Assembly: GCA_963664435.2 (NCBI GenBank) | Contig: CAXXKM010000003.1 | Coordinates: 992,001 to 1,056,000, forward strand | Length of the DNA stretch: 64,000 nucleotides | Reading direction: 5' to 3' | Source of the DNA: Longimicrobiales bacterium | Lineage (GTDB): Bacteria; Gemmatimonadota; Gemmatimonadetes; Longimicrobiales; Gaopeijiaceae | Shown here: piece after piece, positions 32,977 through 62,858 of the stretch | Position numbering within the stretch: the first letter of the stretch is position 1 | Layout of the letters: every line of letters starts with the position of its first letter | Made by a program: the position numbers and the translations under genes | The notes under the pieces: model-generated | What the model was told of the DNA's origin: nothing | The model's database searches: none | What the model saw: only the letters and a program-made list of their open reading frames with translations

Positions 32977-33738
32977 CTAGGAACCGGAGGCGCGCAGCCG
33001 CTCCAGGGCCGCCACCTCCGCCCGCGTCAGATCCCGCCACGCCCCGCGGGCGAGACCTTCCAGCCTGATGGGCCCGAAGCGCACGCGCTCGAGCCGCTGC
33101 ACCGGGTGGCCGACCGCCCGGCACATCCGCCGCACCTCCCGCTTGCGTCCTTCGGTCAGGACGAGCTCGAGGACGGAGATGGGCATGCCACGCTCCAGCA
33201 CGCGGGCGCGCCTCGCCCGCGCAAGGCCGTCTCCCAGCTTCACCCCGGACACCATCCGCCTGAGAACATCCCGCGAGGGCGACCCGGCGACCCGCGCCCG
33301 GTATTCGCGCTCGACCCGGTAGCGCGGATGCGCGAGCACGTTTGCCACTCCCCCGTCGTTGGTCAGGAGCAGCAACCCTTCCGCGGCCTGGTCCAGCCGG
33401 CCCACGTGAACGAGCCCCCGCAACGATTCGGGCAGCAGGTCGTAGACGGTGTCGCGGCCCCGGTCGTCGTGCCGGGTCGTGAGAAAACCCGCCGGCTTGT
33501 TCAGCATCACCCAGCGGATCGCGCCCGGCCGCACGCGGACGCCATCGACGCGCACTTCGTCGATTTCCGGGCGCACGCGGGTGCCGAGTTCGGTGGCCGG
33601 CCGCCCGTTCACCCGCACCCGCCCGGACACGATCAGCGTTTCGGCCCGGCGGCGGGATGCGACGCCCGCGCGCGCGATGAATTTCTGAAGTCGCTCGCCT
33701 CGATCCGGCCGGGTGGAGGAACTCGGGACCCCGGTCAC
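32977..33738 (-). CDS. rluB: rRNA pseudouridine synthase (RluB-type, S4 domain)
   Basis: RLQKFIARAGVASRR, HVGRLD and EGRKREVRRM; lies downstream of scpB. Confidence 0.9.
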   Translation of the reverse strand: MTGVPSSSTRPDRGERLQKFIARAGVASRRRAETLIVSGRVRVNGRPATELGTRVRPEIDEVRVDGVRVRPGAIRWVMLNKPAGFLTTRHDDRGRDTVYDLLPESLRGLVHVGRLDQAAEGLLLLTNDGGVANVLAHPRYRVEREYRARVAGSPSRDVLRRMVSGVKLGDGLARARRARVLERGMPISVLELVLTEGRKREVRRMCRAVGHPVQRLERVRFGPIRLEGLARGAWRDLTRAEVAALERLRASGS

Positions 33739-33823
33739 GCTGCGCCGGACCCTCCTCCGGCGGTCATTCCGCGGCCCAGCGTCTGGACTGTCACTCGGCG
33801 CCCCGACATGTCTGGACCGTCAC
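33735..33823 (-). other. Two chained mini-ORFs (33791-33823, 33735-33794) linking the scpB stop to the rluB start
   Basis: Three successive GTGA overlaps; near-identical 16-bp repeat GTCTGGACYGTCACTC at 33781 and 33810. Confidence 0.55.
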
Positions 33824-34407
33824 TCCCCGGCCGTTGGCTCCCCGGCCGGCTCCGACGCCGCCTGCTCGACCTCGAGCGGCCCCGGTTCCCGGAGCACGAC
33901 CGGGAGCTCCGCCGGACGCGGCAGCTCGTCGAGCGCCTGCAGGCCGAAGTGTTCGAGAAAGTGACCGGTAGTCCCGTAGAGGAGGGGTCTCCCGATCCCT
34001 TCGCCGCGGCCCGTGACCTCGATCAGGTCGCGGTCGAGAAGCGTACGGATCACGCCGGCGCAGTTCACCCCCCTGATGTACTCCATCTCGATGCGTCCGA
34101 CGGGCTGACGATAGGCGACGATGGCCAGCGTCTCCAGCGCCGGCCTCGAGAGGCGCGCCGGCCGGGGAACCGTGTCGAATCGCTCCAGGTAGGGAGCGAA
34201 CTCCGGCCGGGTCAGCAGCTGATGCCCGCCGGCGATCTCCATCAGCTGAAAGGAGCGTTCGCCATCGTCATACTCGCGCCGGAGCGCCGCGATGGCCTCG
34301 GCGACCACGTCTTCGTCGAGGCTCTCGTCGGCACGCGCGATCTCTTCCGCGGTCAGCGGGGCATCGCTGGAGAAGAGAATCGCCTCGACCACCTGTGCCG
34401 GATTCAC
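33820..34407 (-). CDS. scpB: SMC-Scp complex subunit ScpB
   Basis: VEAILF, LSRPALETLAIVAYRQP, GRPLLYGTT and FGLQALDELP. Confidence 0.96.
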   Translation of the reverse strand: MNPAQVVEAILFSSDAPLTAEEIARADESLDEDVVAEAIAALRREYDDGERSFQLMEIAGGHQLLTRPEFAPYLERFDTVPRPARLSRPALETLAIVAYRQPVGRIEMEYIRGVNCAGVIRTLLDRDLIEVTGRGEGIGRPLLYGTTGHFLEHFGLQALDELPRPAELPVVLREPGPLEVEQAASEPAGEPTAGE

Positions 34408-35186
34408 GCGGCCTCCTCGCCGGCGTTCTCGGCTTCCGCCGCCGGGGAAGCCCGCCTGTAGAGCCAGAGCTCATCGAAGGGACGGGTCTGGCGCAGGCGG
34501 ATCTGACGGCGGCGGGCGAGCTCCAGCCCGGCCAGCAGCGTCATCACCCCGTGCATGCGCGCGCGCCAGGCACCAACGAGGCGGGAGAACTCGATGCGCC
34601 CGACGCCGCGCAGCCGTTCCCGGATCAGCGCGATCTTCTCCTCCATTGAGACCGGGCGGGTCCCTATCCTGGGGGGCGCCTGCGGACGCGGCAGCTCGAC
34701 CGCGAGCGCGGCCTTCCAGACTTCCTCCCAGGTCGTGTCCAGCGGCGTGTCACGCGGCTCGGGGCGCGGGCGCGGCGGTACGTAGCCCTTCGCCCAGCGG
34801 CGCATCCTGCGCGCCTCCATGACCTCCAGCCGGGACGATATCTCGCGCACCTGCTCGTACTCCAGAAGGCGCCGCACCAGCTCCGCGCGCGGATCCTCGT
34901 CCTCCTCCTCCCTGCGGTGCGGAAGCAGCATGCGCGCCTTGATGCCGATCAGGATGGCGGCCATCTCGACGAACTCTCCGGCACCCTCCAGTTCTTCCGC
35001 CCCGATCCCGCCCACGACATTCAGGAACTGTTCGGTGATGGTGGCGATGGGAATGTCGAAGATGTCGATGTCCTGCTGCCGGATGAGGTGCAGCAGCAGG
35101 TCCAGCGGCCCCTGAAAGCGCTCCAGCGCGACCACGAACAGCTCGCGGCTCTCCCCGGCGCCGGCGTCGAACGGCGTCAGAGCCAC
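34404..35186 (-). CDS. scpA: Segregation/condensation protein A
   Basis: FQGPLDLLLHLIR, IFDIPIATIT, KARMLLP, DPRAELVRRLLEY and LLAGLEL; start approximate (GTG 35186). Confidence 0.94.
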   Translation of the reverse strand: MALTPFDAGAGESRELFVVALERFQGPLDLLLHLIRQQDIDIFDIPIATITEQFLNVVGGIGAEELEGAGEFVEMAAILIGIKARMLLPHRREEEDEDPRAELVRRLLEYEQVREISSRLEVMEARRMRRWAKGYVPPRPRPEPRDTPLDTTWEEVWKAALAVELPRPQAPPRIGTRPVSMEEKIALIRERLRGVGRIEFSRLVGAWRARMHGVMTLLAGLELARRRQIRLRQTRPFDELWLYRRASPAAEAENAGEEAA

Positions 35187-35836
35187 AGGTCGATGAAGTT
35201 CTGGGCCGCTCCCATGAAGAAGCGGACCGGTGCGAGGACGATGGCGAAGAACGGACCCGGGAACAGGAAGAACACGGCGATGAGGATGAGCATGCCGAAG
35301 CGTCCCAAGCGCCGATAGGCCACCCCCAGGCGCGGGGGCAACAGGTGGTAGAGGACGTGCGATCCGTCGAGGGGCGGGATGGGCACCAGGTTGAAGAAGG
35401 CGAGCACCAGGTTGATCAGGATGCCCAGTTCCGCCATGCGCACCGCCACGTCCATGGGCCCGGCCAGCGTGCCGCCGCTCAACTGAGCGGTCTTGACCAG
35501 CAGGGCGGTGAGCAGCGTGAACCCGATCGCCAGGATCAGGTTCGCCGCGATGCCGGCGAGGGACACGCGGATGTCGCCGCGCCTGTAGTTGTGATACTTG
35601 CGGGGGTTGACGGGCACCGGCCTGGCCCAGCCGAAGAGGAACCCGGCGTTCATGAAGTAGAGGCCGAGCGGAACCAGGATCGATCCGATGAGATCGATGT
35701 GCGGCAGCGGGTTGAGCGTGATGCGCCCGAGCCGGTAGGCGGTGTCGTCGCCCTCGCGCAGCGCGACCCAGGCGTGCGCGACCTCGTGGACGATGATGGA
35801 GAGGAGGAGGACCGGAATGAGCAGGAGAATGTCCAT
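35177..35836 (-). CDS. Site-2 protease (M50)
   Basis: HEVAH, GRITLNPLPH and FNLVPIPPLDGS. Confidence 0.94.
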   Translation of the reverse strand: MDILLLIPVLLLSIIVHEVAHAWVALREGDDTAYRLGRITLNPLPHIDLIGSILVPLGLYFMNAGFLFGWARPVPVNPRKYHNYRRGDIRVSLAGIAANLILAIGFTLLTALLVKTAQLSGGTLAGPMDVAVRMAELGILINLVLAFFNLVPIPPLDGSHVLYHLLPPRLGVAYRRLGRFGMLILIAVFFLFPGPFFAIVLAPVRFFMGAAQNFIDLWL

Positions 35837-36004
35837 GGCACCCGGAAGCTACCCGCGGCTGCACCCGACCGCTACCCGGCGGGCTCGCGTCGGAGGCCGG
35901 CGAGGCGAACGGCGCGGGGTTCGCCGGTTCCGGTTGATTCCCGCAGTGGAATTGGGTATCCTCCGCAGCTTGCTGAAGAAGGACCGCACGATCCGAGGAA
36001 CAGG

Positions 36005-36259
36005 ATGCCGAACGTCAAGAGCGCGACAAAGCGCATGAACAAGAGCCGGGAGCAGAACGCCCGCAACCGCGCGAAGCGTTCCCGGCTGCGCACGGCGCTC
36101 AAGCGGGTGCGCGAAGCCGGTGACGCCGAGACCGCACAGGCGCGTTTTCGCGAGGCGCAGGTCCTGCTGGATCGCGCCGCCACGTCCCGTCTGCTGCACC
36201 CGAACACCGCCGCCCGCCTGAAGAGCGCGCTGGCGCGCCGGGTCAACTCCCTGGGGTAG
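36005..36259 (+). CDS. rpsT: 30S ribosomal protein S20
   Basis: MPNVKSATKR...NRAKRSRLRTALK...LHPNTAARLKS; 84 aa, basic. Confidence 0.95.
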   Translation: MPNVKSATKRMNKSREQNARNRAKRSRLRTALKRVREAGDAETAQARFREAQVLLDRAATSRLLHPNTAARLKSALARRVNSLG

Positions 36260-38194: not shown

Positions 38195-38196
38195 GC

Positions 38197-45475: not shown

Positions 45476-46678
45476 ATGAGCTTTTCGAAGACGACGCTGG
45501 GAGTCACAACCGTCGTGATCATCGCGGTCTTGCTCGGCGGCGGCATTTATCTGCGGTTGCGCCCGGCTCCCGCGGACGAGGATGCCGCAACCCCCTCCGA
45601 AGCGACGACGCTCGAGGTGCCGGATGCCTCCCTTGCGAGCTTTGCGCGGCGCGCCCAGCCGGTGACCGGTGCGCGCGTGCACCGCGATACGCTCTGGATC
45701 AGGATCACGGCTTCGGGGATGGCGGCCGCGTTCCGTCGCGCCACCCTTGTGGCTCGCGTGGCCGGCCAGGTGCGGGACGTCAGGGTGCGCGAGAACGATC
45801 CGGTCGATTCCGATGCCTTCCTCATCCAGATCGACACCACCGAGTACGCGCTGGCGCTGGCGCGGGCCAACAGCACGCTCACCGGGGCCCAGGCCGACTA
45901 CGAGCAGATCGTGCTCTTCGACGACGAAATCGCCGATCCCGAGGTGCGCGCGGAGCGGGCGCGCGTCGCTCGCTCCCGCAGCGGTCTGGATGATGCCATG
46001 GTGAGCGTTCGCCAGGCGGAGCTGGAACTCTCGTGGACGCGAATCAGCGCTCCCTTCGCGGGCCGGGTCGCCGACCTGCGGGTCGTGCCGGCCCAGTTCG
46101 TGGCCCAGGGCGACGAGTTGGTCACCGTCGTGGAGCTGGACCCCATCAAGGTCGAAGCCCAGGTGCTGGAGGGCGAAATCGGGCTCCTGGAGGAGGGCCG
46201 GCGCGCCACCATGACCTTCGCCGCGTTCCCGGGCGAAACCTTCACCGGCACGGTGGAGACCATCAACCCGGTTATCGACCTCGAGACCCGCTCGGCGCGC
46301 GTGACCGTGTTGCTCCCGAACCCCGGCGGCAGGATCAAACCCGGCATGTACGCGAGCGTATCGCTGGACGCGCAGCACTTCACCGAGCGCATCCTGGTCC
46401 CGCGCTCCGCGGTGCTCGAGCGCGACCGGCGCACCATGCTTTTCGTCTTCAACGAGGAGGAGGGGGAAATCGGCCGCACCGAGTGGCGCTACGTCACCAC
46501 CGGGCTCGAAAACGACCAGGTGGTCGAAATCCTGGAGAACCCGGAGACCTCGATGGTCGATCCCGGAGAGATCGTGCTCGTGGATGGCCACCACTTCCTC
46601 GGGCACGACGCCGCCGTCCAGCTCGCTGAAGGAGACATGCCCGCTGGCGCAGCACCTGCCGCCGGGTCGGAACGATGA
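45476..46678 (+). CDS. RND efflux periplasmic adaptor
   Basis: TRISAPFAGRV, INPVIDLETRS and IKPGMYA. Confidence 0.92.
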   Translation: MSFSKTTLGVTTVVIIAVLLGGGIYLRLRPAPADEDAATPSEATTLEVPDASLASFARRAQPVTGARVHRDTLWIRITASGMAAAFRRATLVARVAGQVRDVRVRENDPVDSDAFLIQIDTTEYALALARANSTLTGAQADYEQIVLFDDEIADPEVRAERARVARSRSGLDDAMVSVRQAELELSWTRISAPFAGRVADLRVVPAQFVAQGDELVTVVELDPIKVEAQVLEGEIGLLEEGRRATMTFAAFPGETFTGTVETINPVIDLETRSARVTVLLPNPGGRIKPGMYASVSLDAQHFTERILVPRSAVLERDRRTMLFVFNEEEGEIGRTEWRYVTTGLENDQVVEILENPETSMVDPGEIVLVDGHHFLGHDAAVQLAEGDMPAGAAPAAGSER

Positions 46679-48045
46679 GCCGCCGTGGGACGCTGTTCCG
46701 GCGCGGCATCCTCGCCGCACTGCTGGCGACGGCTCCGCTAGAAGCACAGGAGCCGCAGGTCCTCTCGCTTGAAGAAGCTCTGGAGCTGGCGAGACAGAAC
46801 AATCCCCTGCTGCGCCAGGCCATCAACGAGCTGGAGCTGACGCCGGCCGGGATGCGGGCGGCGTGGGGGGCCTTCCTGCCGTCTCTCTCTCTGGACTACG
46901 GCACCAGCATGACCCTCAACCGGCGGCTTCAAGCCGAGGATTTCTTCGGCAATCCGATCGCCAACCCGAACGTGGAGTGGGCAACCACTTCCTCGTCGAA
47001 CCAGAGCCTGTCCGTCAACGTCGATCTTTTCGAGGGCGGCAGCCGGTTTCACCAGCGGGGAGCCGAGCGCGCCCGCGGCGTCGCCCGGGAGCGGAGAGTC
47101 GAAGCCGAGTTGACCGACACCTTTGCACGCGTCTCCAACAGCTTCTACGAGACCCTCCGGCAGTCGGACCTTCTGGAACTGGAGCTGGCGATCCTGGAGG
47201 GCAAGCGACTCGATTTCGAAAGCACGCGCAGGCTCTTTGAGCTCGCCGTCAGTACGCAGGTCGACGTGCTGGCCGCGGAGTTGGAAATGCAGCAGCAGGA
47301 GCGAGCGGTTCGCGAGGCGGAAAACGAACACGCCAAGGCCTTGCTCACGTTGCGCGCTGAGATCGCCGCGCCGGCCATGGGCGAATTCACGACCCGCGGC
47401 ACCGCATCGGAACCGTTCGGCCCCGAAGCTCTCGATGAAGCGGCGCTCATCACCCGTGCCTTGGAGCTGAGTCCCCGTCTCCGGCAGCGTCGGGCGGAAG
47501 TGGACGCCGGGCGCGCCACGTTGAGTTCGCAGCGGAGTACGCGCTGGCCGACGGTCCGCCTGGGAACCAGCTTCTACCAGAGCGCCCACGGTCAGGAGTT
47601 TGCGGCCGCCTTCGACCCCTTTTCGCAGAATTCCCGCTACGCCCAGGCGCGGTTGAATCTTTCGATTCCAGTCTTCACGGGCTTCTCCACCGAGCGCAAC
47701 ATCGTCGAAGCCCAGGTTCAGCTGGCCAATGCCGAGGAGCAGATGCGCCAGAACCGCATGGAGATCGAGCGGGATGTGCGCTCCCGCCTCATCGACCTTC
47801 GCGGCGCCTGGGACAGCTACCGGCTGGCGGAACGATCGAGCGAGATCGCGGAAGAGCGCCTCAGGCTGGCGCGGGAGGGATACCGCCTGACAACGGTCAC
47901 CTTCCCCGACCTGCAACTCGCGATCGAGGGAGCGGCCAACGAACGGCGCACCGCGATCAACGCCCGCTACGACTTCGTCGCCGCCCGCATCGCCCTCGAA
48001 CAGGTTGTGGGCGGGCCGCTCGACGGCGGCACCCCGCTTCCCTGA
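46675..48045 (+). CDS. TolC-family outer membrane protein
   Basis: Signal peptide; LSLEEALELARQNNP, AFLPSL and coiled-coil repeats. Confidence 0.9.
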   Translation: MSRRGTLFRRGILAALLATAPLEAQEPQVLSLEEALELARQNNPLLRQAINELELTPAGMRAAWGAFLPSLSLDYGTSMTLNRRLQAEDFFGNPIANPNVEWATTSSSNQSLSVNVDLFEGGSRFHQRGAERARGVARERRVEAELTDTFARVSNSFYETLRQSDLLELELAILEGKRLDFESTRRLFELAVSTQVDVLAAELEMQQQERAVREAENEHAKALLTLRAEIAAPAMGEFTTRGTASEPFGPEALDEAALITRALELSPRLRQRRAEVDAGRATLSSQRSTRWPTVRLGTSFYQSAHGQEFAAAFDPFSQNSRYAQARLNLSIPVFTGFSTERNIVEAQVQLANAEEQMRQNRMEIERDVRSRLIDLRGAWDSYRLAERSSEIAEERLRLAREGYRLTTVTFPDLQLAIEGAANERRTAINARYDFVAARIALEQVVGGPLDGGTPLP

Positions 48046-48110
48046 CGCATGTCGATCCCCGGTCCCCGACGCATGTCGATTCCCGGTCCCTGACGAATGT
48101 CGATTCCCCG
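48040..48110 (+). repeat. About 3 copies of a 24-bp tandem repeat covering the tolC stop and RND start
   Basis: CCCTGACGCATGTCGATCCCCGGT / CCCCGACGCATGTCGATTCCCGGT / CCCTGACGAATGTCGATTCCCCG; contains mini-ORF 48049-48093 (MSIPGPRRMSIPGP). Confidence 0.9.
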
Positions 48111-51100
48111 CATCTCGACTCGGCGGCCCGTCGCCGTGGCCATGCTCTTCCTGGCCATCTCCCTGCTGGGAATCATCTCCTTCCTGCGGCTGCCCATCGA
48201 CCTTCTGCCCGACGTGAGCTACCCGCGCCTGGTGGTCTATACGACCTATCCCGATGTGGCGCCGGCGGAGGTGGAGCGGCTCATCACCGAGCTGGTGGAG
48301 GCCCAGGGGGCGGCGGTGCCGGGGGTCGAGAAGGTGACGTCGGTGTCGCGCGACGGGGTGAGCCTGGTGACGCTGCGCTTCGCCTGGGGCACGGACATGG
48401 ACTTCGCCATGCTCAACGTGCGCGAGCGCGTCGACAACATCCGCGAGTTCCTTCCCGAAACCTCGGAGCGGCCGCGCATCCTGCGCATCGATCCCGAATC
48501 CGAGCCCATCATGGTGCTCTCGGTGGCCGGAGGCACCGACTTGTGGGCGACCAAGGACTTCGTGGAGACGGTCTTCCGGCGCAGGCTGGAGCAGCTCGAC
48601 GGGGTGGCGCAGGCGGCGGTTACGGGCGGGCTTGACCGGGAGATCCAGGTGGAGGTGGATCCCGACCTGCTGCTCTCGTACGGGCTTGAGATGGAGGAAG
48701 TGGCGGTCGCGCTCGCCCGGGCCAACTTCTCCGCCCCGGGAGGATCCATCCTGCGCGGACGCTACCGCTACCCGCTCCGCACCCTGGGCGAGTTCCAGAC
48801 CGTCGACCAGATCGGGCAGGTGGTGGTGGGACGCCAGCAGACCGAGACGGGGGCAGAGCAGGAGAGCGAGGGCGGCTACCGGCTGGTGAGGCTGGACGAC
48901 GTGGCGCGGGTGGTGGACGGATTCGCCGACCGCGAGTCCATCGCGCGCTACAACGGCGCCGAGGCCGTGGGGCTGCTGGTGTACAAGGAGTCCGGTGCGA
49001 ACACGGTGGCGGTGGCCGACCAGATCGAAGGGGCGCTCGGGATCCTGGCGCTCGAGTTTCCCGACATCACCGTGGACATCGCCTACTCCCAGGCGGGGTT
49101 CATCTCCGATTCCATCAGCAACGTCGTGCAGGCCCTGGTGTTCGGAGGCATGCTGGCCTTCCTGGTGCTGTTCTTCTTCCTGCGCGATCCGCGCTACCCC
49201 TTCGCCATTGCGCTCGCGATCCCGATCTCCGTGGTGGGCGCCTTCGCGCTGATGGAGGCGTTCGGGGTCTCGCTGAACATCATGAGCCTGGGGGGGATGG
49301 CGCTCGGGGTGGGCATGCTGGTCGACAACTCCATCATCGTGCTCGAGAACATCTTCCGGCACCGGGAGCAGGGTGTTCCCTCGGTGGAGGCGTCGGCGCT
49401 CGGGGGCGAGGAGGTGCAGGGAGCGATCACGGCTTCGACCCTCACCACCATCTCGGTATTCGGACCGATCATCTACATCGAGGGGGTGGCGGGCGAGCTG
49501 TTCGGCGACCTGTCGCTGGCGGTGGCCTTCTCCCTGCTGGCCAGCCTGCTGGTGGCGCTGACCCTGCTGCCGGGGATGGCGGCGCGCTTCGTGGACCGGA
49601 AAAGGGTGTCCGACCGGCCTGAGCGGGCGAAGCCGGGGCGGCGGCCGGGGCGTCTGGCGAGGATCGGGCGGGCGTGCCTGTGGGTCGTGGCGCTTCCCTT
49701 CCGGCTGATCGCGGGAGCATTCGCGCTGGGACGCGCGCTGGCGGTCTTCTGGTGGGAGGGGGTGGCGGGGGTGTGCGGGCGACTGTTCGGGCCGCTGCTC
49801 ACCGCCTTCGACCGCGGGTTCCAGCGCTTCGCCGACCGCTATCACCAGCTTCTTGAAGTATCGCTCGATCACCGCGGGCGGGTGCTGGCCATCTCCGGGG
49901 CCGCGCTGGCGGCCACGCTGGCGCTCGCGCTCGCCCTGGACCGGGACCTGCTCCCGGACGTCGACCAGGGCGGGTTCCGGGTGCGCCTCGAGCTGCCGGA
50001 GGGGACGGGGTTGCCCGCAACCGCGCTGGCGGTGGAGGAGATCGAACGGGCGCTTCAGGGCGACCCCGGCGTCGAGACCGTCTTTTCCCGCGTGGGCGAG
50101 GACGTGCGCTCCTACATGGAGAGCGAGGAGACCTCGGGCGCGCACACGGGCAACCTCGAAGTGCGCCTGAATCCGGGGAGCGCCACGGGCGAGGTGCTGG
50201 AGCGGGCGCGCGAGGTGGAGGCTCGTTTCCCGCCGGGAACGCTGGCCTTCGAGGCCGGCCAGGCGACCGCGCTGGGCCAGGTGCTGGGTGGTGCCGACGC
50301 CGACATCGCGGTGCGCATCCGGGGTGAAAACCTGGAGGAGAGCTACGCCTACGCCGAGACCGTACGCGAAGAGCTGTCGACGCTGGCGGAGATCGGCAAC
50401 GTGCGGGTGGGCACCGGACGCGGACAGCCCCAGGTCCAGGTCGAGATACTGCGCGACGTGGCTGCGCGCCACAACATCGATCCGCGCCTCATCGCCGAGG
50501 AGATCGAGCGCGCCATGCGCGGCGACCGGGCCACCGAGTTCGTCGACTTCGACCGAAAGATCGACGTGGTGGTCAGGCTGCCCGACGCCCTGCGCTTCTC
50601 CGCCGAGACGCTCGAGACCCTGCAGGTGCGTGGCGTGCCGCTGCGCGAGCTGGTCAACGTCCGCGAAGCGGTGGGCCCGGCGGAGATCCACCGCGAGGAC
50701 CAGGGACGCGTGGTCACCGTCTACGCCGACGTGATCTCCGGCGGCCTCAACCGCGCGATCGCCACGGTGGATCGCGAGCTGGCCATGCTTCCGCCGCCCT
50801 TCAACGTGCGCGTCGACGTCGGCGGCGAGAACGAGGAGATGCGCCGCTCGTTCCGCGACCTCGCCTTCGCCTTCGGGCTCGCGCTGGTGCTCGTGTACAT
50901 GATCCTGGCGGCGCAGTTCGAGTCCTTCAAACATCCGCTGACCATCCTCATTTCGGTGCCGCTCGCGCTGTCGGGCGCGGTGCTGGCGCTCGCGCTTGCC
51001 GGCCAGAGCCTGAACACCATGAGCCTGATCGGGGTGGTCATCCTGGTGGGCATCGTGGTCAACGACGCGATCGTGAAGGTGGAATTCATCAACCAGGCGC

Positions 51101-51402
51101 GGACCCGCGGGTCCGCGCTGCGGGATGCGATTCTGGAAGCCGGGAAGGTGCGCCTGAGACCCATCGTCATGACCACGGTGACCACCGTCTGCGGGCTCAC
51201 GCCGCTGGCGCTGGGCATCGGGCGCGGGGCCGACCTTCGTGCCCCGCTCGCCATCGCGGTGATCGGGGGGCTGGTGGTGGCCACGGCGCTCACCCTCATC
51301 GTCGTGCCGGTGGTGTACTCCGTGGTGGAGAGCGGCCACGCGCGTCTCCGCGGCAAAGCTCGCGCGCCGCGCGCCGCCCGGGCCGCGGAGGTGATCCCGT
51401 GA
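48097..51402 (+). CDS. RND efflux permease 1
   Basis: RRPVAVAM, GMLVDNSIIVLENI and RLRPIVMTT. Confidence 0.95.
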   Translation: MSIPRISTRRPVAVAMLFLAISLLGIISFLRLPIDLLPDVSYPRLVVYTTYPDVAPAEVERLITELVEAQGAAVPGVEKVTSVSRDGVSLVTLRFAWGTDMDFAMLNVRERVDNIREFLPETSERPRILRIDPESEPIMVLSVAGGTDLWATKDFVETVFRRRLEQLDGVAQAAVTGGLDREIQVEVDPDLLLSYGLEMEEVAVALARANFSAPGGSILRGRYRYPLRTLGEFQTVDQIGQVVVGRQQTETGAEQESEGGYRLVRLDDVARVVDGFADRESIARYNGAEAVGLLVYKESGANTVAVADQIEGALGILALEFPDITVDIAYSQAGFISDSISNVVQALVFGGMLAFLVLFFFLRDPRYPFAIALAIPISVVGAFALMEAFGVSLNIMSLGGMALGVGMLVDNSIIVLENIFRHREQGVPSVEASALGGEEVQGAITASTLTTISVFGPIIYIEGVAGELFGDLSLAVAFSLLASLLVALTLLPGMAARFVDRKRVSDRPERAKPGRRPGRLARIGRACLWVVALPFRLIAGAFALGRALAVFWWEGVAGVCGRLFGPLLTAFDRGFQRFADRYHQLLEVSLDHRGRVLAISGAALAATLALALALDRDLLPDVDQGGFRVRLELPEGTGLPATALAVEEIERALQGDPGVETVFSRVGEDVRSYMESEETSGAHTGNLEVRLNPGSATGEVLERAREVEARFPPGTLAFEAGQATALGQVLGGADADIAVRIRGENLEESYAYAETVREELSTLAEIGNVRVGTGRGQPQVQVEILRDVAARHNIDPRLIAEEIERAMRGDRATEFVDFDRKIDVVVRLPDALRFSAETLETLQVRGVPLRELVNVREAVGPAEIHREDQGRVVTVYADVISGGLNRAIATVDRELAMLPPPFNVRVDVGGENEEMRRSFRDLAFAFGLALVLVYMILAAQFESFKHPLTILISVPLALSGAVLALALAGQSLNTMSLIGVVILVGIVVNDAIVKVEFINQARTRGSALRDAILEAGKVRLRPIVMTTVTTVCGLTPLALGIGRGADLRAPLAIAVIGGLVVATALTLIVVPVVYSVVESGHARLRGKARAPRAARAAEVIP

Positions 51403-51467
51403 CCGGCGTCGGCGGCTCCGGGCGGACCGGCGCAATGCCGCGCCCGGCGGTGGAGGTGGCGCGGTGA
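51399..51467 (+). other. 22-codon mini-ORF bridging the two RND permease genes
   Basis: GTGA overlap with the upstream stop (51399-51402) and the downstream start (51464-51467). Confidence 0.5.
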
Positions 51468-54400
51468 TCGGCGGGAGCATCCGCCGCCCCGTGGCGGTGG
51501 CGATGGGCTGCCTCGCCGTCGCGCTCATGGGAGCCAGCGCCTGGCGCAACATCCCCATCGAGCTGCTGCCGGATACCGACCTCCCCAGACTCAACGTGGA
51601 AGCGAGCTGGCGCGGCGCTTCCCCGGAAACGGTCGAGGCCTTCCTCACCTCCCCCATCGAATCCGTGGTCCAGCAGGTCAAGGGGGTGGAAAAGGTCATC
51701 TCCGTTTCCAGGGAAGTACAGGGGATGGGGACGTCCAGCATCGAGGTGCATTTCAGCCGCGAAACGGACATGGACTTCGCGCGGCTGGACCTCTCCGAGC
51801 GCCTCTCGGCCCTGGAGGAGGAGCTGCCACCTGCCGTCGAGCGGGTTCTGGTCCGGCCGTACATCCCTCCCGAATTCGAGTCCCGCGGCCAGCGCGGCTT
51901 CCTGCGCTACACCTATACCGGCCCCTACACGCTGGAGGCGCTCCGCTCCGACCTCGACGACCGGGTGGTCCCGGATCTCTCGCAGATCGAAGGGGTGGCG
52001 CTGGTGCAGGCGAGCGGGGGCCGCGAGCGCCTCATCGAGATCGAACTGAACGAGGACCGGGTCAGCTCGCTCGGGCTCTCGCCGGGCATGGTGAACACCC
52101 GGATCAACGACCTCGACCTGGTACGCGAGGCGGGCGCGATCCGGGCAGGCGGCCAGGAATGGTCGGTAACCATCCAGAACCGCGTCGCGCGCGCCGAGGA
52201 GATCCGGAACACGGTGCTGCTCGAGAACCGCGGCAGCGTGGTGCGGGTCTCGGATGTCGCGGATGTGCGCGACAGCTTCGAGGAGCCCCTGGGCTACAAC
52301 CGCATCAACGGCCGGCCCGCGGTCTCGTTCCTCGTGATCCGCGAGATCGGCGCCAACACGGTGCGCGCGGCGGATGCGGTCAAGGCACGCGTGGCGCAGC
52401 TGGAGCGCGCGGGCCTGGCCGGGACGACCATGCTCCTCGACTACGACGAGAGCGAGGACATCAAGGAGCAGCTCACCGACCTGCGGGCCCGGGCGCTGAT
52501 CTCCGCCTTCGTCATCTTCGCGGTGCTGCTCCTCTTCCTGCGCTCGTTCCGCTCCGCCGGGGTCGTCTTCATGACGATCGCGTTCTCCGTCCTCATCTCC
52601 CTGAACCTGATCTACTTCGGGGGCATGACCCTCAACCTGCTCACCCTGATGGGGCTGGCGATGGGGTTTGGTCTGATCGTGGACAACGCCATCGTGGTTC
52701 TGGAGAGCGTCTTCCGCCGCTGGCAGGCGGGGCGGGATCCGGTGGGCGCCGCGACCGAGGGCACCCGCCAGGTCGTGCTGCCGATCCTCACCTCCACCGC
52801 CACGACCCTCATCGTCTTCGTGCCTTTCGTTTTCCTGCAGGGGGAACTGCGGGTGTTCTATGTGCCGCTGGCGATCGTGGTGGCGCTGACGCTGATGGCG
52901 TCGCTGCTGGTGGCGTTCACCTTCATCCCGGCGCTGGCCGCCCGAGTCCTGCCGCGGGTGCGGATGGAGGAGAGAGCCGGCGCCGCGACCGTGCCCGCGC
53001 CGCTCGCGGAGACCGCCGACGCGCCGGGCCGAGAGGCCGCGCACCCCGGCATGACCGGTGACCGGGCCCAGGGCGCCGAACCCGGGCGTTCACCGTTCCG
53101 GCGCGGGCGCGCGACACCGCTCTACACCCGGATCTACTCGACCGTCATCGGCTTCACCCTGCGCCACGCCTGGCTGGCGGTGACGGCGGCGGTGCTGGCC
53201 TTCGGCGGGTCGTATTACCTCTTCGAGAACCACGTGACCCGCGGGGTGCTCTGGGGCGGGGGCATGGGGCTGGACACCTATGTCCTCATCAACATCGAGC
53301 TGCCGCGCGGCTCCGATCTCGAGCGCACCGACAACCTGGTGCGCTCCTTCGAGGAAAGGCTGGCCGCGATTCCGGAGGTCGAACGCTTCTCGTCGACCGT
53401 GAGAGGCACCTACGGGAGGATCACCATCAACTTCCCGGACTCGCTGGAGAACACCGGCATCCCCATGGCCATCAAGGAGCAGATGTTCAGCTACAGCCTG
53501 GGCTTCACGGGCGCCGAGGTGCGGGTGATCGGAGTCGGCCTGGGATTCTACGGCGGAGGTGGGGGCGCCAGCCCGAACTATTCCATGCAGGTGCTGGGCT
53601 ACAACTACGAGAGGGTGCGCGAGATCGCCGAAGACCTGGGCGACCGGCTCGCGCGCGTGCCGCGGGTGCGCACCATCGACACCAACTCCGCCGGGAGATT
53701 CGTCCGCGAGCGCGCCACCGAGTTCGTGGTCGAAGTCAGGCGGGACCAGCTGGCGCGCCACGACATTTCGGTTCAGGAGCTGGTCGCGCGCATGAACGCG
53801 GCCGTCGCCGGCCAGACCAGCGACGCGCAGCTCAAGATCGGCGGCGACGAGGTGCGCTACGAGGTCAAGCTCGAAGGATATCGCGAGACCGACGTACAGG
53901 AGCTGCTCGAGACCATCATCAGCACCTCCTCCGGCACCGGCATCCGGCTGGGCGACGTGGTCTCGATCGCCCCCGTTGACGTGCTCGCCTGGATCCGCCG
54001 CGAGGACCAGCAGTACGAGCGCACCGTGGCGTACGAGTTCGCGGGCCCGCGCCGGCTGGGCGACCAGTACTACGACGGCATCATCGAGTCCACCGAGCTT
54101 CCGGTGGGATATGTGATCGAGGAGGACCAGGGATTCCGCTGGAGCGAGGAGGACCGCCAGCAGATCTACGCGGTGCTGGCGGTGTCGATTCTCCTCATCT
54201 ACATGGTGACGGCCGCGCTCTTCGAGTCGGTGCGCCTGCCGCTGTGCGTCCTGCTCACGGTGCCGATGGCACTGATCGGCGTCTTCCTGATGTTCTTCTA
54301 CACGGGCGCGTCGTTCACCCGGGAGGCGTACGTGGGGGTCATCATGATGGGCGGGATCGTGGTCAACAACGCCATCCTGCTGGTGGACAACATCAACCGT

Positions 54401-54691
54401 GTCCGGCGCGAGTCCGGGGACGACCTGCACGCCGCCATTCTCGCGGGCACGCTCGAGCGGGTCCGGCCGATCCTGATGACCACGGCCACCACGGTGCTCG
54501 GGCTGCTCCCCCTGGTGCTCTTCTCCGAGACCGCCGACTCCACCATCTGGAACGCGCTCGGTTACGCGCTCATCGGTGGGTTGCTGTCCTCCACGGTCTT
54601 CGTGCTGGCCACCACCCCGGCCATCTACCTGCTCATCGAGGGGCGCCGCGCGCGATCGGGACGGATGGCCGCGCGGGCGCCGGCGGCCTGA
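51464..54691 (+). CDS. RND efflux permease 2
   Basis: RRPVAVAM, GLIVDNAIVVLE and RVRPILMTT. Confidence 0.95.
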   Translation: MIGGSIRRPVAVAMGCLAVALMGASAWRNIPIELLPDTDLPRLNVEASWRGASPETVEAFLTSPIESVVQQVKGVEKVISVSREVQGMGTSSIEVHFSRETDMDFARLDLSERLSALEEELPPAVERVLVRPYIPPEFESRGQRGFLRYTYTGPYTLEALRSDLDDRVVPDLSQIEGVALVQASGGRERLIEIELNEDRVSSLGLSPGMVNTRINDLDLVREAGAIRAGGQEWSVTIQNRVARAEEIRNTVLLENRGSVVRVSDVADVRDSFEEPLGYNRINGRPAVSFLVIREIGANTVRAADAVKARVAQLERAGLAGTTMLLDYDESEDIKEQLTDLRARALISAFVIFAVLLLFLRSFRSAGVVFMTIAFSVLISLNLIYFGGMTLNLLTLMGLAMGFGLIVDNAIVVLESVFRRWQAGRDPVGAATEGTRQVVLPILTSTATTLIVFVPFVFLQGELRVFYVPLAIVVALTLMASLLVAFTFIPALAARVLPRVRMEERAGAATVPAPLAETADAPGREAAHPGMTGDRAQGAEPGRSPFRRGRATPLYTRIYSTVIGFTLRHAWLAVTAAVLAFGGSYYLFENHVTRGVLWGGGMGLDTYVLINIELPRGSDLERTDNLVRSFEERLAAIPEVERFSSTVRGTYGRITINFPDSLENTGIPMAIKEQMFSYSLGFTGAEVRVIGVGLGFYGGGGGASPNYSMQVLGYNYERVREIAEDLGDRLARVPRVRTIDTNSAGRFVRERATEFVVEVRRDQLARHDISVQELVARMNAAVAGQTSDAQLKIGGDEVRYEVKLEGYRETDVQELLETIISTSSGTGIRLGDVVSIAPVDVLAWIRREDQQYERTVAYEFAGPRRLGDQYYDGIIESTELPVGYVIEEDQGFRWSEEDRQQIYAVLAVSILLIYMVTAALFESVRLPLCVLLTVPMALIGVFLMFFYTGASFTREAYVGVIMMGGIVVNNAILLVDNINRVRRESGDDLHAAILAGTLERVRPILMTTATTVLGLLPLVLFSETADSTIWNALGYALIGGLLSSTVFVLATTPAIYLLIEGRRARSGRMAARAPAA

Positions 54692-56173: not shown

Positions 56174-56244
56174 AACTCCCGGAAGATCGCGGATGCGGTT
56201 GGGCAGCGCACCGCGACCTGCCCTGGGGCCGGGGAGCCCGGTGA
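56170..56244 (+). other. 24-codon mini-ORF bridging gltX and the next gene
   Basis: ATGA overlap at the gltX stop; GTGATG overlap at the downstream start. Confidence 0.45.
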
Positions 56245-56846
56245 TGCAAGCCGGCGGATCAGCTGGTCATCCGAGGCGGTGCGGCACGGCGATGTGGCAT
56301 CCGGGGCGCCGACGCCGAACGGCGAGGTTCGCCGCCTTCACCGTGACCGTGCTGACCGCCCTCGTTGCCCTCGCGCCCACGGCCCTCGCCGCGCAGCGGG
56401 CCAACCGCAAGGCCGTCGAGGTCATCTTCGACGTGCTCCGGCCGGGCGAACAGCCCACCTTCTTCGCCGAGCAGGTCGGGCGCCCCCCCGGGGCCACGGG
56501 CCGCGCCCTGCTGGACGACGAGAACCGGAGGGCGCTGGAGCAGCTCGGTTACGTCGAAGTCATGGCGGTCGAAGATGTGCTGCTCTGCCCCGAATTCCCT
56601 TCCGCCGAGGGTTGCCGGATCAGGGACGGGGGCGTCCTCTACCAGCTCGTCATGCCCGAACCCATCGCCGGCGGGCGGCTTTCGATGCGCGTGGTCCGCC
56701 TGATCGACGGGGCCGGCACCAACGGGGTGATCCGGCGCGAAGTGTGGGACATCCTGATGGTGCCCGACGCCGAGATGGGATGGCGGGCGGCGCGCACCCG
56801 CCTCGACGCCGCCGGCGACGGCCCGTGGGCGCCGCCGCCGGGTTAG
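56241..56846 (+). CDS. Exported hypothetical protein
   Basis: Signal-like segment (LTALVALAPTALAA-Q), a Cys pair, and GC3-biased codons; start uncertain. Confidence 0.65.
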   Translation: MMQAGGSAGHPRRCGTAMWHPGRRRRTARFAAFTVTVLTALVALAPTALAAQRANRKAVEVIFDVLRPGEQPTFFAEQVGRPPGATGRALLDDENRRALEQLGYVEVMAVEDVLLCPEFPSAEGCRIRDGGVLYQLVMPEPIAGGRLSMRVVRLIDGAGTNGVIRREVWDILMVPDAEMGWRAARTRLDAAGDGPWAPPPG

Positions 56847-59540: not shown

Positions 59541-59569
59541 CGGAGCCGCCAACCCTGCGCGACAGGCGT

Positions 59570-59609: not shown

Positions 59610-59644
59610 GTCGGGGCTCATTTGCAGCTGGAAAGCACGCTCCC

Positions 59645-59700
59645 TTGACTCGCCCGGACGCGTCCCCTACTGTTGCATCTGTAGTACATGACTACAACAG
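59645..59700 (+). promoter_or_regulatory. Sigma70 promoter plus palindromic GntR/YtrA-type operator
   Basis: TTGACT-N17-TACTGT; TGTAGT-ACATG-ACTACA at 59680-59696. Confidence 0.75.
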
Positions 59701-59710
59701 TTGAGGCGCC

Positions 59711-60115: not shown

Positions 60116-61050
60116 CGAACAGGGCGGCGGCGCTTCCCATCGACCTCGGGAATGGCCCATTCGCGGTCTCGACACGAGGGCTGGCCAGGCGGTTCGGCTC
60201 TACCCGGGCTCTGGACGGCCTGGATCTGCAGGTTCCCGAAGGGGCCGTATACGTGCTCGTGGGCCCCAACGGTGCCGGCAAGACCACGCTGATTCGGACC
60301 CTCATGGGTCTCGTGCGATACCAGGCCGGCACGGTCAGCGTCCTGGGGCGGGACCCGTCCGACCGGGGAGCCGAAGTGCGCGCGGGCATCGGCTACGTGC
60401 CGGAGGACTACCGGGTCGGCTACGCCTGGATGACGGTGGGCCGACTGCTGGAGCACCAGGCGGTCTACAACCCATCCTGGGACGCGGAATACGCCCGCGA
60501 ATTGAGGGCCAGGTACGCGATCGATCCCGGACGCAAGTGTCACGCGCTGTCCAAGGGCCAGAGCCGACGCGTGCAGCTCGTCCTCGCGCTGGCGCACAGG
60601 CCGCCGCTGCTCCTGCTGGACGAACCGACGGACGGTCTGGACCACGTGGTGCGCGACGATACCCTGAGCATCCTGAGCGAACACCTCGCCGATTCTCCGA
60701 CCACCGTTGTGATCTCCACGCACAGGGTCTACGAGGTCGAGTCCCTGGTGGATCACGTGGGCGTGCTGTCGGAGGGACGACTCCTGGGCCAGCTGCCGCG
60801 CGACGAATTGTACGGGGGCTTGTTGCGTTACTGGGCGGATGTCCCCGAAGGCTGGAGGGGACCTGGCGAGTTGGCAGGCTGGGTGGTCAAGCGCAGCGAC
60901 GCGGCCCGCGGGATCGAATGGACCGTGTGGGGCGACCGCAACGCCGTTACGCGCGAGCTGTCCCAGGCGGGCGCGGAGGTTCGTGAGGTCGTCCCCTTGT
61001 CGGTGGACGAAGCAGCGGTGGCATTACTCTCCGGAAGGGAGGCAACATGA
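60112..61050 (+). CDS. ABC transporter ATP-binding protein
   Basis: GPNGAGKTT, LSKGQ and LLLLDEPTDGLD. Confidence 0.94.
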   Translation: MTNRAAALPIDLGNGPFAVSTRGLARRFGSTRALDGLDLQVPEGAVYVLVGPNGAGKTTLIRTLMGLVRYQAGTVSVLGRDPSDRGAEVRAGIGYVPEDYRVGYAWMTVGRLLEHQAVYNPSWDAEYARELRARYAIDPGRKCHALSKGQSRRVQLVLALAHRPPLLLLDEPTDGLDHVVRDDTLSILSEHLADSPTTVVISTHRVYEVESLVDHVGVLSEGRLLGQLPRDELYGGLLRYWADVPEGWRGPGELAGWVVKRSDAARGIEWTVWGDRNAVTRELSQAGAEVREVVPLSVDEAAVALLSGREAT

Positions 61051-61931
61051 CGGATTCAATGGCAGGCCGCATACCCGCGATGAAGGCGGTGTGGATCGAA
61101 CAACTTCGCGTGGTCGGGCTCGCCATCCGCCGCGAGGGTGCCCTGGCAGCCCTGGTACTGGGGCTCGGCTCGGTGGCTCTCATTGCCTTCAGCCGAATGC
61201 CGGTCCTGCAGGCAATGCTCGATGCCGAGATGGGCGAGCTCGTCCTGGATCCCGGCGAGCCCCCCTGGGGATTCTTCGCCGTGCTCGCCGGACTGCTCCT
61301 CCCCCTCGTGGTGTGGAAGGGCGAGCGCCGGTTCGGCGACACCCCGCTGTGGTCGCTGCCCGTCGATCACCGGAGGCACGCGCTCCTCAAGGTGGCGGCC
61401 GGATGGGTCTGGCTCCTGGCGATCCTGGGTGTGGCCCTCGGGTGGGTCACGCTCACGACGTTGGCGAGCGGCGGGACCATGGGCGTCGACGAAGTTCGGG
61501 TCCTCATCGTCGATCCGGTTGGAGCCGCCGAGGGCACGCCCGGCGCCACGGAATCGGTGAGCTGGACCACCCCGTGGTGGGAGTGGGCACTCCCCTTCAC
61601 GTCGGCCACCGCCGCCTACCTGCTGGCCAGCACCCTGATGCTCGCCACGGCGCGCCCGCTGTTCTGGGCCGTCGGGCTGTGGGTCGCGGGCGCGGTCTTG
61701 GTGGCCGTCGGCGATAAGTGGGACATCGGCTGGATTCAGCGGACCACCGAGTTCGTTGCCTGGTACGCCGGTGGGGATTCGTTCACACGGGGGATGCAGC
61801 TGCCGATCGGTGGGAGAGAGGTGTGGACGCTCCTGCCGACCATGCAGATGTGGATGGCATCGTCCGCGTTCTGGATCGGCCTGGGGCTGGTGGGAGTGCT
61901 GGGGGCGTCAGGCCGAGCGCGGAATCACTGA
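61047..61931 (+). CDS. Putative ABC permease
   Basis: About 6 TM segments, WSLPV motif, ATGA overlap with the ATPase gene. Confidence 0.75.
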   Translation: MTDSMAGRIPAMKAVWIEQLRVVGLAIRREGALAALVLGLGSVALIAFSRMPVLQAMLDAEMGELVLDPGEPPWGFFAVLAGLLLPLVVWKGERRFGDTPLWSLPVDHRRHALLKVAAGWVWLLAILGVALGWVTLTTLASGGTMGVDEVRVLIVDPVGAAEGTPGATESVSWTTPWWEWALPFTSATAAYLLASTLMLATARPLFWAVGLWVAGAVLVAVGDKWDIGWIQRTTEFVAWYAGGDSFTRGMQLPIGGREVWTLLPTMQMWMASSAFWIGLGLVGVLGASGRARNH

Positions 61932-62770
61932 CCCGGGATCCCTTGCAGCACCTTGCGGACACTCGGGCTCGCATCTCTCAGAAGGCGCTTCCGGTATGCG
62001 TCGCCGTCCGGATCATCCGGGTAGTGCAGGCCGGATCCGGCCGCAAGCAGCATCTCGACCAGCTCCACGTATGCGTCCTGGCGCTCCTCGGCGCCGCCGG
62101 AATACCGGGAACCGTGGACGGCCCAGTGCAAGGGAGAGGATTCGTGAATGTCGTCGAAGACATCGACCGGCGCGCCGGCATCGAGCAGCAGGCGCGCGTT
62201 TCGGGGTTGGCCGAACCAGGCGGACTGATGGAGTGGGGTGCCGGAGTCGAGACCCCTTGCTGTCAGGTCCGCCCCAGCCTGGATCAGCAGCTTCACGGGC
62301 TCCCGGTCGGTGCGGCCGGCTACATCCGCCAGCAGCCGGTCTTCCTCGGGGTTGCCGGTTCGGGCTACGCCAGGATTGTCTTTGAGGATCGCCCGCGCCT
62401 CGTCGAGACGTCCGTTGACGATCGCCACCGCGAAACGGTCGGCTTCGTTCAACCCGGTGTCGGCGCCGCGGTTCACGAGCAGGTTCGCGACTTCGTCAAA
62501 CCCTCTCCTGACGGCGTGCGCGTATGCGGTCTTGCCCCCCGCCGTCCCGGCTTCGATCCCGGCCCCGTGGTCGAGGAGGACGTCTACGGCTCGGAGACGC
62601 CGTCGCCGGGTGGCTACGTGAAGCGGCGTTTCCGCGTACACCCCGCTGCGCACGTTGGGATCGGCCCCCCCGGCGAGCATCCGACGCAGTACCTCGTCGC
62701 CATCCGCCCCGTAATGGAAGTCCAGAAGCCAGAACAGCGCCCGCTCCATCGCCCCCGGCGTTTCGTTCAT
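61925..62770 (-). CDS. Ankyrin-repeat protein
   Basis: ETPLHVA, GKTAYAHA, GTPLHQSA, SPLHWA and LLxAGA repeats. Confidence 0.9.
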   Translation of the reverse strand: MNETPGAMERALFWLLDFHYGADGDEVLRRMLAGGADPNVRSGVYAETPLHVATRRRRLRAVDVLLDHGAGIEAGTAGGKTAYAHAVRRGFDEVANLLVNRGADTGLNEADRFAVAIVNGRLDEARAILKDNPGVARTGNPEEDRLLADVAGRTDREPVKLLIQAGADLTARGLDSGTPLHQSAWFGQPRNARLLLDAGAPVDVFDDIHESSPLHWAVHGSRYSGGAEERQDAYVELVEMLLAAGSGLHYPDDPDGDAYRKRLLRDASPSVRKVLQGIPGQ

Positions 62771-62858
62771 CCGATGGTTCGTCCTCGATGCGATTCCGGG
62801 CCGGACGGGCGCACGCGCGCCGTAGCCCTCACCGCTGCTCGCTGGCCCTGACCCTCAC
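62767..62858 (-). other. Two chained mini-ORFs (62829-62858, 62767-62832) linking the kdgK stop to the ankyrin start
   Basis: GTGA, GTGA and ATGA overlaps; 13-bp repeat CCCTCACCGCTGC at 62826 and 62852. Confidence 0.55.

What the first reader, a model, noticed from the sequence alone, without database searches (positions are those of the whole stretch)
33735..62858. Recurrent mini-ORF relays that preserve translational coupling across intergenic gaps
Seen: most co-directional gaps of about 50-90 nt in this window are spanned exactly by tiny ORFs whose start overlaps or abuts the upstream stop and whose stop overlaps or abuts the downstream start. Cases are scpB>rluB (2 links), tolC>RND1 (1), RND1>RND2 (1), gltX>hypothetical (1) and kdgK>ankyrin (2), plus two links after rpsT. 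Four sites retain tandem duplications of the junction sequence. Established: -4 RTGA overlaps mediate termination-reinitiation coupling, and they are frequent here. Inference: junction duplications or insertions persist only if ribosomes can be relayed, giving an unannotated class of spacer ORFs and possibly a source of new peptides or tunable expression. Caveat: stops are rare at this GC content, so any one link has an appreciable chance probability.
Basis: partly seen in the sequence, partly recalled or inferred. Interest (0 to 1): 0.75.

Follow-up and report, generated by a model that had tools for sequence, protein, structure and literature searches.

The report
Relay mini-ORFs across expanded gene gaps
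In this bacterium and its relatives, gaps that open between once-overlapping neighbouring genes are spanned more often than chance by tiny throw-away reading frames that likely pass ribosomes on to the next gene, a layout already known from mycobacterial repeats but here made of unrelated local sequence.

Summary
The links are in the sequence. Five of six 50-90-nt gaps in the window are bridged, but genome-wide only 28 of 191 are (17 of 284 after phase shifting), and the rpsT links end 172 nt short of the next gene.

The excess needs a start codon overlapping the stop. For 41-150-nt gaps behind (A/G)TGA stops, 33 of 79 relay and 5 run out of frame through the next start (shifted: 24 and 39 of 108). 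CTGA and TAG/TAA controls show nothing there. In relatives, 13 of 16 junctions that overlap directly elsewhere and keep an RTGA stop are relayed, and length changes stay in frame while the peptides drift at the synonymous rate.

Against: a CTGA control is positive for 10-40-nt gaps; duplications relay almost automatically; mini-ORF starts lack Shine-Dalgarno enrichment; translation was not shown.

Best reading: selection keeps termination-reinitiation coupling and removes run-through frames. It works like mycobacterial MIRUs but is not a repeat family. The scan found this before, in this genome and in others.

The parts
33820..34407 (-). scpB, upstream gene of a two-link relay
   Evidence: PF04079; stop in GTGA context
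33791..33823 (-). mini-ORF link 1 (10 codons); 29-nt unit from a junction duplication seen only in this genome
33735..33794 (-). mini-ORF link 2 (19 codons), ends in a 4-nt overlap with the rluB start; counterpart of the single link in seven relatives
32977..33738 (-). rluB-type pseudouridine synthase, GTG start
   Evidence: PF00849, PF01479; start call
36005..36259 (+). rpsT
   Evidence: PF01649
36261..36297 (+). two 5-codon mini-ORFs from a 19-nt duplication of the rpsT 3' end; not a relay (next gene starts at 36470); one copy fewer in another strain
   Evidence: run X7 lacks 19 nt at 36253
46675..48045 (+). tolC-type outer-membrane efflux protein
   Evidence: PF02321
48049..48093 (+). mini-ORF (14 codons) made of two extra copies of a 24-nt junction unit; 3-nt gaps at both ends
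48097..51402 (+). RND transporter 1
   Evidence: PF00873
51399..51467 (+). mini-ORF (22 codons), 4-nt overlaps at both ends; open in 16 of 18 genomes with unconserved peptide; GGAGGT before its start and before its end
51464..54691 (+). RND transporter 2, GTG start
   Evidence: PF00873
54695..56173 (+). gltX
   Evidence: PF00749, PF19269
56170..56244 (+). mini-ORF (24 codons) from the gltX stop to in-frame GTG 56241 / ATG 56244 of the next gene; direct-capable in 16 of 17 relatives
56241..56846 (+). conserved hypothetical gene; start uncertain (56241, 56244 or 56292)
   Evidence: no Pfam family; orthologues
62855..63892 (-). kdgK-like PfkB kinase
   Evidence: PF00294
62829..62858 (-). mini-ORF link 1 (9 codons) between two copies of a 13-nt repeat of the kdgK end
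62767..62832 (-). mini-ORF link 2 (21 codons), ends in a 4-nt overlap with the ankyrin ATG
61925..62770 (-). ankyrin-repeat gene; follows kdgK only in this genome among those examined
   Evidence: PF12796

Best explanation
Tiny reading frames span many gaps between neighbouring genes from one gene's stop to the next gene's start, and they likely persist because ribosomes that restart at the start codon overlapping the stop are carried to the next gene, whereas gap lengths that would send them out of frame through its start are likely removed by selection. Shown: the frames, their excess over phase-shifted copies, the deficit of run-through frames, dependence on a start codon at the stop, frame-keeping length changes in relatives, and unconstrained peptides. 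Inferred: (1) ribosomes reinitiate at the (A/G)TG inside the stop; (2) they terminate on the downstream start and reinitiate again or open it for a new ribosome; (3) the spacers arise locally by duplication, insertion or a frameshift in a gene end, and collapse again by deletion between the two RTGA ends; (4) the peptide is waste.
For: Genome G000, gaps 41-150 nt, RTGA stops: relay/near/ends upstream/run-through = 33/10/31/5 of 79, against 24/6/39/39 of 108 (shift after the stop; p=7e-7 for run-through, 0.0035 for relay) and 17/3/50/37 of 107 (shift in mid-gap); CTGA stops 18/10/54/39 of 121 and TAG/TAA 24/11/60/55 of 150 match their nulls. RTGA versus CTGA directly: p=8e-6 and 3e-5. Scaling the CTGA fates by the RTGA/CTGA ratio at convergent ends predicts 10/6/31/22, so relays are in absolute excess and run-through in absolute deficit. 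The result stands at three coding-score cut-offs and in 2.39 Mb of eight relatives (31/4/20/4 of 59 against 13/7/34/32 of 86; not independent of G000). Junctions that overlap directly in another genome: 16 of 21 gapped alleles with an RTGA stop relay; 15 of 16 with RTGA at both ends; 13 of 16 junctions against a shifted rate of 8 of 26 (binomial p=5e-5, Fisher p=0.002). RND1>RND2 relays in 16 of 18 genomes at gaps of 61, 70 and 181 nt; scpB>rluB in all 8 gapped genomes at 55, 70, 81 and 130 nt. Mini-ORF changes per codon position 0.22/0.17/0.14 against 0.045/0.035/0.165 in flanking genes. Coupling is nearly lost at about 20 nt distance in E. coli and Haloferax (PMC10666635, passages), so an unbridged gap would uncouple.
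Against: No translation data: the one RNA run holds only relatives at about 90% identity. Mini-ORF starts show no Shine-Dalgarno enrichment (mean score -0.28, n=51, against 0.80 at direct overlaps and -0.39 at unbridged RTGA stops), and downstream genes of relays carry as much SD signal as unbridged ones (0.67 vs 0.64). For 10-40-nt gaps the CTGA control is also positive in G000 (17 of 63 vs 3 of 66). Relay plus near against 'ends upstream' is only borderline under one null (p=0.057) though clear under the other (p=0.0003). No relay excess at 151-300 nt under the after-stop null (9 of 40 vs 16 of 74). Relays are not permanent: of 24 G000 relays with a G014 orthologue 13 are relays, 4 direct, 6 unbridged, 1 unscored. 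About a third to a half of relays are expected by chance, so no single link is proven. Starts come from my own caller; 420 of 1007 gaps of 10-150 nt were set aside because the frame allowed a direct start.
Confidence: 0.6

Rival explanations
1. Damage avoidance only: ribosomes do restart at the overlapped start codon, but the downstream gene initiates on its own; selection just removes frames that run over its start, and relays are what is left.
For: Run-through is the strongest deficit (5 of 79 vs 39 of 108); downstream genes of relays keep normal SD scores; uORFs that overlap the main ORF can repress it (PMC13285730 and PMC11260477, passages).
Against: Frames that end harmlessly upstream are not increased (31 observed, 31 predicted from CTGA), whereas relays are about three times the prediction (33 vs 10); RND1>RND2 and scpB>rluB keep exact overlaps through several length changes.
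Confidence: 0.2
2. By-product without translation: relays arise automatically from tandem duplication of RTGA junctions and from frameshifted gene tails, and persist by descent.
For: Duplications are coupled in 23 of 30 phase-shifted copies too; two of the 13 relayed junctions look by eye like former tails of the upstream gene; third-position G+C is raised in the mini-ORF frame (0.76 vs 0.69 in pseudo-relays, z=3.1); the CTGA control is positive for 10-40-nt gaps; relatives share alleles by descent (tree).
Against: Neutral insertions give relay and broken phase equally, yet the count is 15 of 16; tail frameshifts should give CTGA pseudo-relays too, but 0 of 52 pseudo-relay pairs have a directly overlapping partner against 28 of 119 relay pairs; it cannot explain the run-through deficit below the CTGA baseline; only 9 strict relays of G000 carry an exact repeat of 9 nt or more.
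Confidence: 0.12
3. Spacer translation protects the transcript: ribosomes covering the G+C-rich spacer block Rho loading or RNase attack, and hand-over is secondary.
For: The genome encodes Rho (TIGR00767 over cut-off); relay spacers are G+C-rich (0.71 upstream of the start vs 0.64-0.65); Rho polarity on untranslated RNA is established knowledge (recalled).
Against: Run-through frames would cover the spacer equally well but are depleted; for uPPE2 in M. tuberculosis Rho was excluded as the cause (PMC11260477, passages).
Confidence: 0.05
4. The mini-ORFs are unannotated small proteins or regulatory leader peptides.
For: Some keep their length between genomes (13 equal-length pairs at 11 junctions).
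Against: First and second codon positions change five times faster than in flanking genes (75 of 388 vs 39 of 968, p=9e-18); mean coding score is negative (-0.33); peptides share no family.
Confidence: 0.03

Closest known systems
MIRUs, mycobacterial interspersed repetitive units (Supply et al. 1997, not held; seen through passages of PMC12548453 and PMC4473831)
   Same: Intergenic small ORFs in the direction of the flanking genes whose ends overlap both neighbours, with 4-nt spacing; proposed to let an insertion leave expression intact; chains of several links.
   Different: MIRUs are a dispersed repeat family that appears mobile. The 78 spacers here share no family (4 short all-against-all hits); they arise locally and turn over between species.
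Translational coupling by termination-reinitiation at ATGA/GTGA overlaps (PMC10666635, passages; PMC6728339, search listing only)
   Same: Same 4-nt overlap at each link; 360 of 2446 co-directional pairs here overlap by 4 nt.
   Different: There two real genes overlap; here a disposable ORF is coupled at both ends and restores a short distance across 10-180 nt.
Integron attC short ORFs and ORF-11 (review PMC8876359, passages)
   Same: Short ORF between genes started by reinitiation at the upstream stop; amino-acid sequence matters little.
   Different: Tied to recombination-site hairpins and cassettes; ORF-11 has its own SD. No hairpin excess after the stop here.
Ribosome-delivering uORFs, such as uPPE2 of M. 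tuberculosis and S. meliloti uORFs (PMC11260477, PMC13285730, passages)
   Same: A short ORF ending in an AUGA overlap is needed for the downstream gene; shown by reporters there.
   Different: Those start de novo in a leader with their own SD; these start at the upstream gene's stop and lack SD enrichment.

Membership tests
MIRU | small ORF overlapping both flanking genes, same direction | tested here: met
MIRU | dispersed repeat family of related units | tested here: not met
   78 spacers against each other and against the genome: no family; extra hits are local tandem copies or short low-complexity matches
MIRU | tandem copy-number variation at a locus | tested here: inconclusive
   tolC>RND1 has 0, 1 or 2 extra units across 18 genomes and rpsT varies between strains, but only 15 RTGA junctions of G000 have an exact repeat
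MIRU | no dyad symmetry | tested here: inconclusive
   no excess structure in the 40 nt after relay stops (3 of 33 strongly folded); whole spacers not folded
Termination-reinitiation coupling | stop and start overlap by 4 or 1 nt or lie within a few nt | tested here: met
Termination-reinitiation coupling | downstream output depends on upstream translation and stop position | not testable with these tools
   needs reporters; only the evolutionary footprint was tested
Termination-reinitiation coupling | both ORFs on one transcript | tested here: inconclusive
   the only RNA run holds relatives as contigs that do not span the junctions
Small protein genes | purifying selection on the peptide | tested here: not met
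Leader uORF with own initiation | Shine-Dalgarno signal before the uORF start | tested here: not met
   7 of 51 score above 1, as at convergent RTGA stops; RND1>RND2 is an exception

The most novel reading that the evidence does not exclude
Any start codon that overlaps a stop is used by terminating ribosomes, even without a Shine-Dalgarno signal, often enough that selection polices the reading frame of ordinary intergenic DNA genome-wide: frames that run through the next start are purged, frames that land on it are kept and rebuilt. 'Non-coding' spacers of 40-150 nt are then under a cryptic mod-3 constraint, part of the gene pairs scored as uncoupled by distance are coupled, and new genes (the ankyrin gene behind kdgK) can be wired into an operon by such links; CUG may serve as a weak restart for short gaps.
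Probability: 0.4. Interest if true: 0.62.

Novelty: new variant of a known kind. Interest (0 to 1): 0.42.

Why it matters
Distance between annotated genes is the usual proxy for translational coupling (more than 20 nt is scored as independent in PMC10666635). If these relays work, that proxy misses pairs such as two RND transporter genes 61 nt apart. The RTGA-versus-CTGA run-through test is a sequence-only measure of how often ribosomes restart after a stop and can be run on any genome. It also warns small-protein surveys that ORFs kept in frame and translated may have no peptide function. The layout itself is known (MIRUs), the effect concerns about 5-8% of short gaps, and the organism is uncultured, which limits the score.

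Tried and rejected
Relaxed-overlap nulls (z 6-8) are biased, because the shift itself breaks 1-nt and abutting links; not used, redone with a mid-gap shift. Unit length mod 3 of exact junction repeats shows no bias (6/6/7 for in-frame, broken, relay), and their fates are not above the shifted null: no support from duplications. Starts of relayed genes fold more stably than first genes (-18.3 vs -15.0 kcal/mol), but this vanishes after correcting for G+C (p=0.28): not used. Structure just after the stop does not separate relays from non-relays (p=0.29). SD signal before mini-ORF starts: no enrichment. A mobile repeat family: not found. Assembly indels as the source: window junctions match public contigs without gaps and are shared with relatives; not checked outside 33000-52500 and 54000-64000. 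Hiding of run-through ORFs by the gene caller: removing low-score genes before pairing did not change the result. Expression: RNA run X1 has a 0.05 word share and is another strain or species; no evidence either way. Relative sequence is limited to 2.39 Mb from 8 genomes plus search loci; 437 of 557 orthologous junctions were seen in one relative only. The original MIRU paper is not held. Supplements of the papers were not opened.
Full report
Setting. The window is G000:C3:992001-1056000 of a 4.5-Mb, 68% G+C genome in three contigs with 18 same-genus relatives. Public holders are labelled sponge metagenome; the phylum name Gemmatimonadota comes from earlier scan notes and was not tested. No gene caller was installed, so I wrote one whose start choice uses no information on the upstream gene; it gives 3332 genes and still finds 360 of 2446 co-directional pairs at the 4-nt overlap.

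The observation. Four junctions are strict (A/G)TGA chains, tolC>RND1 abuts with 3-nt gaps, and the rpsT pair stops 172 nt before the next gene. Five of six 50-90-nt gaps in the window are bridged. Contigs of runs X5 and X7 cross the five relay junctions without gaps, and X7 lacks one 19-nt rpsT copy, so they are not assembly errors.

Genome-wide test. For each gap I followed the frame that begins one base before the upstream stop and compared it with copies shifted by one or two bases, either after the stop or in mid-gap. Stops not preceded by A or G served as controls, read from the same position. A first pass gave 78 strict relays of 164 RTGA junctions against 55.3 expected (z=4.9); its relaxed variants were biased and are dropped. 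With a symmetric filter that removes every junction whose downstream gene could start directly (420 of 1007), gaps of 41-150 nt behind RTGA stops give 33 relay, 10 near, 31 ending upstream and 5 running through the next start, of 79; shifted copies give 24/6/39/39 of 108 and 17/3/50/37 of 107. CTGA (18/10/54/39 of 121) and TAG/TAA (24/11/60/55 of 150) equal their nulls; TTGA follows RTGA (2 of 28 run through vs 14 of 45). Scaled from CTGA, the expectation is 10/6/31/22: relays are tripled, run-through is cut to a quarter, harmless early stops are unchanged. The result holds at coding-score cut-offs 20, 40 and 60 and in pooled relatives. For 10-40-nt gaps RTGA is positive (18 of 34 vs 6 of 35) but so is CTGA in G000 (17 of 63 vs 3 of 66; not in the relatives, 8 of 34 vs 8 of 38), which I cannot explain. 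At 151-300 nt none of 40 runs through (10 of 74 shifted) and the relay excess depends on the null. In absolute terms relays are a minority: 51 of 1007 gaps under the strict filter, and 28 of 191 gaps of 50-90 nt under a reader-like rule against 17 of 284.

Relatives at the window's junctions. scpB>rluB: 10 of 18 genomes overlap directly (three with in-frame N-terminal extensions) and 8 have a gap, of 55 (five genomes), 70, 81 or 130 nt; all 8 are bridged (six confirmed by script, two read by eye). RND1>RND2: 16 of 18 genomes have an open mini-ORF with overlaps at both ends (gap 61 in 13, 70 in two, 181 in one, where nearer in-frame starts also exist) and two overlap directly; a second contig of G017 has a 58-nt gap that is open from a TTG. 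The base before the stop always completes a start codon, whereas at convergent ends proline before TGA is CCC in 25 of 34 cases. On a tree of six genes each spacer looks gained once, changed in length in frame several times, and lost again by collapse to the direct overlap, so these are a handful of events, not 8 or 16. tolC>RND1: 12 direct, 5 with one or two extra 24-nt units, 1 with an unbridged 182-nt gap. gltX>hypothetical: direct-capable in 16 of 17 relatives, relaxed relay in one. The ankyrin gene was found in 4 of 18 relatives, always behind a different gene, and in the four relatives where kdgK was read it is followed by other sequence; here it has moved behind kdgK, with a 13-nt repeat forming the first link.

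Relatives at large. In 2.39 Mb from eight genomes I recovered 557 orthologous junctions. Twenty-six overlap directly in at least one genome and are gapped in another (38 distinct alleles). Sixteen alleles are strict relays; 17 have lost the overlapping start, often to TAG; of the 21 that keep it 16 relay, and of the 16 with RTGA at both ends 15 do. By junction it is 13 of 16 against a shifted rate of 8 of 26. When a relay's partner has another gap length and keeps its RTGA stop it is a relay in 36 of 42 pairs, against 3 of 24 for unbridged RTGA junctions; pairs are not independent. Relays also decay: 6 of 24 are unbridged in G014. CTGA pseudo-relays also tend to keep phase (19 of 30 changed pairs), a second sign of the unexplained CTGA signal, but none of their 52 pairs has a directly overlapping partner.

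What the mini-ORFs are not. They are not proteins: over 194 codons at 11 junctions the three positions change at 0.22, 0.17 and 0.14, the flanking synonymous rate. They are not a repeat family. They are mostly not duplications: 15 RTGA junctions have an exact repeat of 9 nt or more, 13 stay coupled, but 23 of 30 shifted copies do too. They have no SD enrichment. Their slightly raised third-position G+C fits a coding origin for some, and two look like former tails of the upstream gene.

Mechanism. Neutral insertions at an RTGA junction give three outcomes equally: in-frame extension, relay, or a frame that runs through the next start. The third is nearly absent, and only where a start codon overlaps the stop. 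That implies the codon is used. Coupling fails beyond about 20 nt in E. coli and Haloferax (PMC10666635, passages), so a relay would restore it. Whether the benefit is hand-over or only avoidance of interference is not settled: the absolute excess of exact relays favours hand-over, the normal SD signal of downstream genes and the borderline after-stop test (p=0.057) leave the other open. Translation was not shown.

Known kinds. MIRUs are described as small ORFs whose ends overlap both neighbours and that let an insertion leave expression intact (PMC12548453 and PMC4473831, passages; the original is not held). Integron attC ORFs and ORF-11 (PMC8876359, passages) and uPPE2 (PMC11260477, passages) give experimental precedent for disposable delivering ORFs; overlapping uORFs can repress (PMC13285730, passages). 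These spacers work like MIRUs but fail the repeat-family test. Eight full-text searches listed no genome-wide phase test of non-repetitive spacers; the library lacks most subscription papers. Earlier notes of this scan report the same thing in this genome and in several others; I had reached the MIRU comparison before reading them, and one note's wording on where a restarting ribosome ends up preceded my run-through test.

Verdict. A real, modest, selection-shaped feature: new variant of a known kind, interest 0.42.

Noticed in passing
genome-wide, gaps of 10-40 nt behind CTGA stops: Frames read from the CTG inside a CTGA stop land on the next start more often than chance in G000 (17 of 63 vs 3 of 66) and tend to keep phase in relatives: CUG reinitiation or an unknown bias.
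   Followed up: partly
window 61925-62770: Ankyrin-repeat gene sits behind kdgK here but behind a different gene, with a shorter N-terminus, in four relatives; a recent translocation.
   Followed up: partly
window 36240-36297: The 3' end of rpsT carries related short repeats in several relatives and differs by one 19-nt unit between strains.
   Followed up: partly
window 59570-59610: An inverted-repeat-like element with the core TACCCACTACCGGTAG follows a gene end; similar copies follow stops at G000:C3 near 1062200 and after kdgK in G001 and G005. Looks like a REP-type family.
   Followed up: no
window 59670-59700: Possible palindromic operator (TGTAGTACATGACTACA) before a small regulator gene and its ABC transporter; GntR label recalled, not tested.
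   Followed up: no
G000:C3:794239-795342: A second rho-like gene below the family cut-off (474 bits) besides the main rho on C1.
   Followed up: no
G000:C1 near 589884 (minus strand): An 18-nt unit containing ATGA is repeated about seven times in a 181-nt gap, in frame.
   Followed up: no
L067/L072 (G008): G008 has expanded both efflux-operon junctions by about 180 nt: unbridged at tolC>RND1, bridged by a 62-codon frame at RND1>RND2.
   Followed up: partly
window 44356-44539: tadA can start inside lexA at an in-frame GTG; the lexA-like protein matched only the DNA-binding domain at the cut-off used.
   Followed up: no
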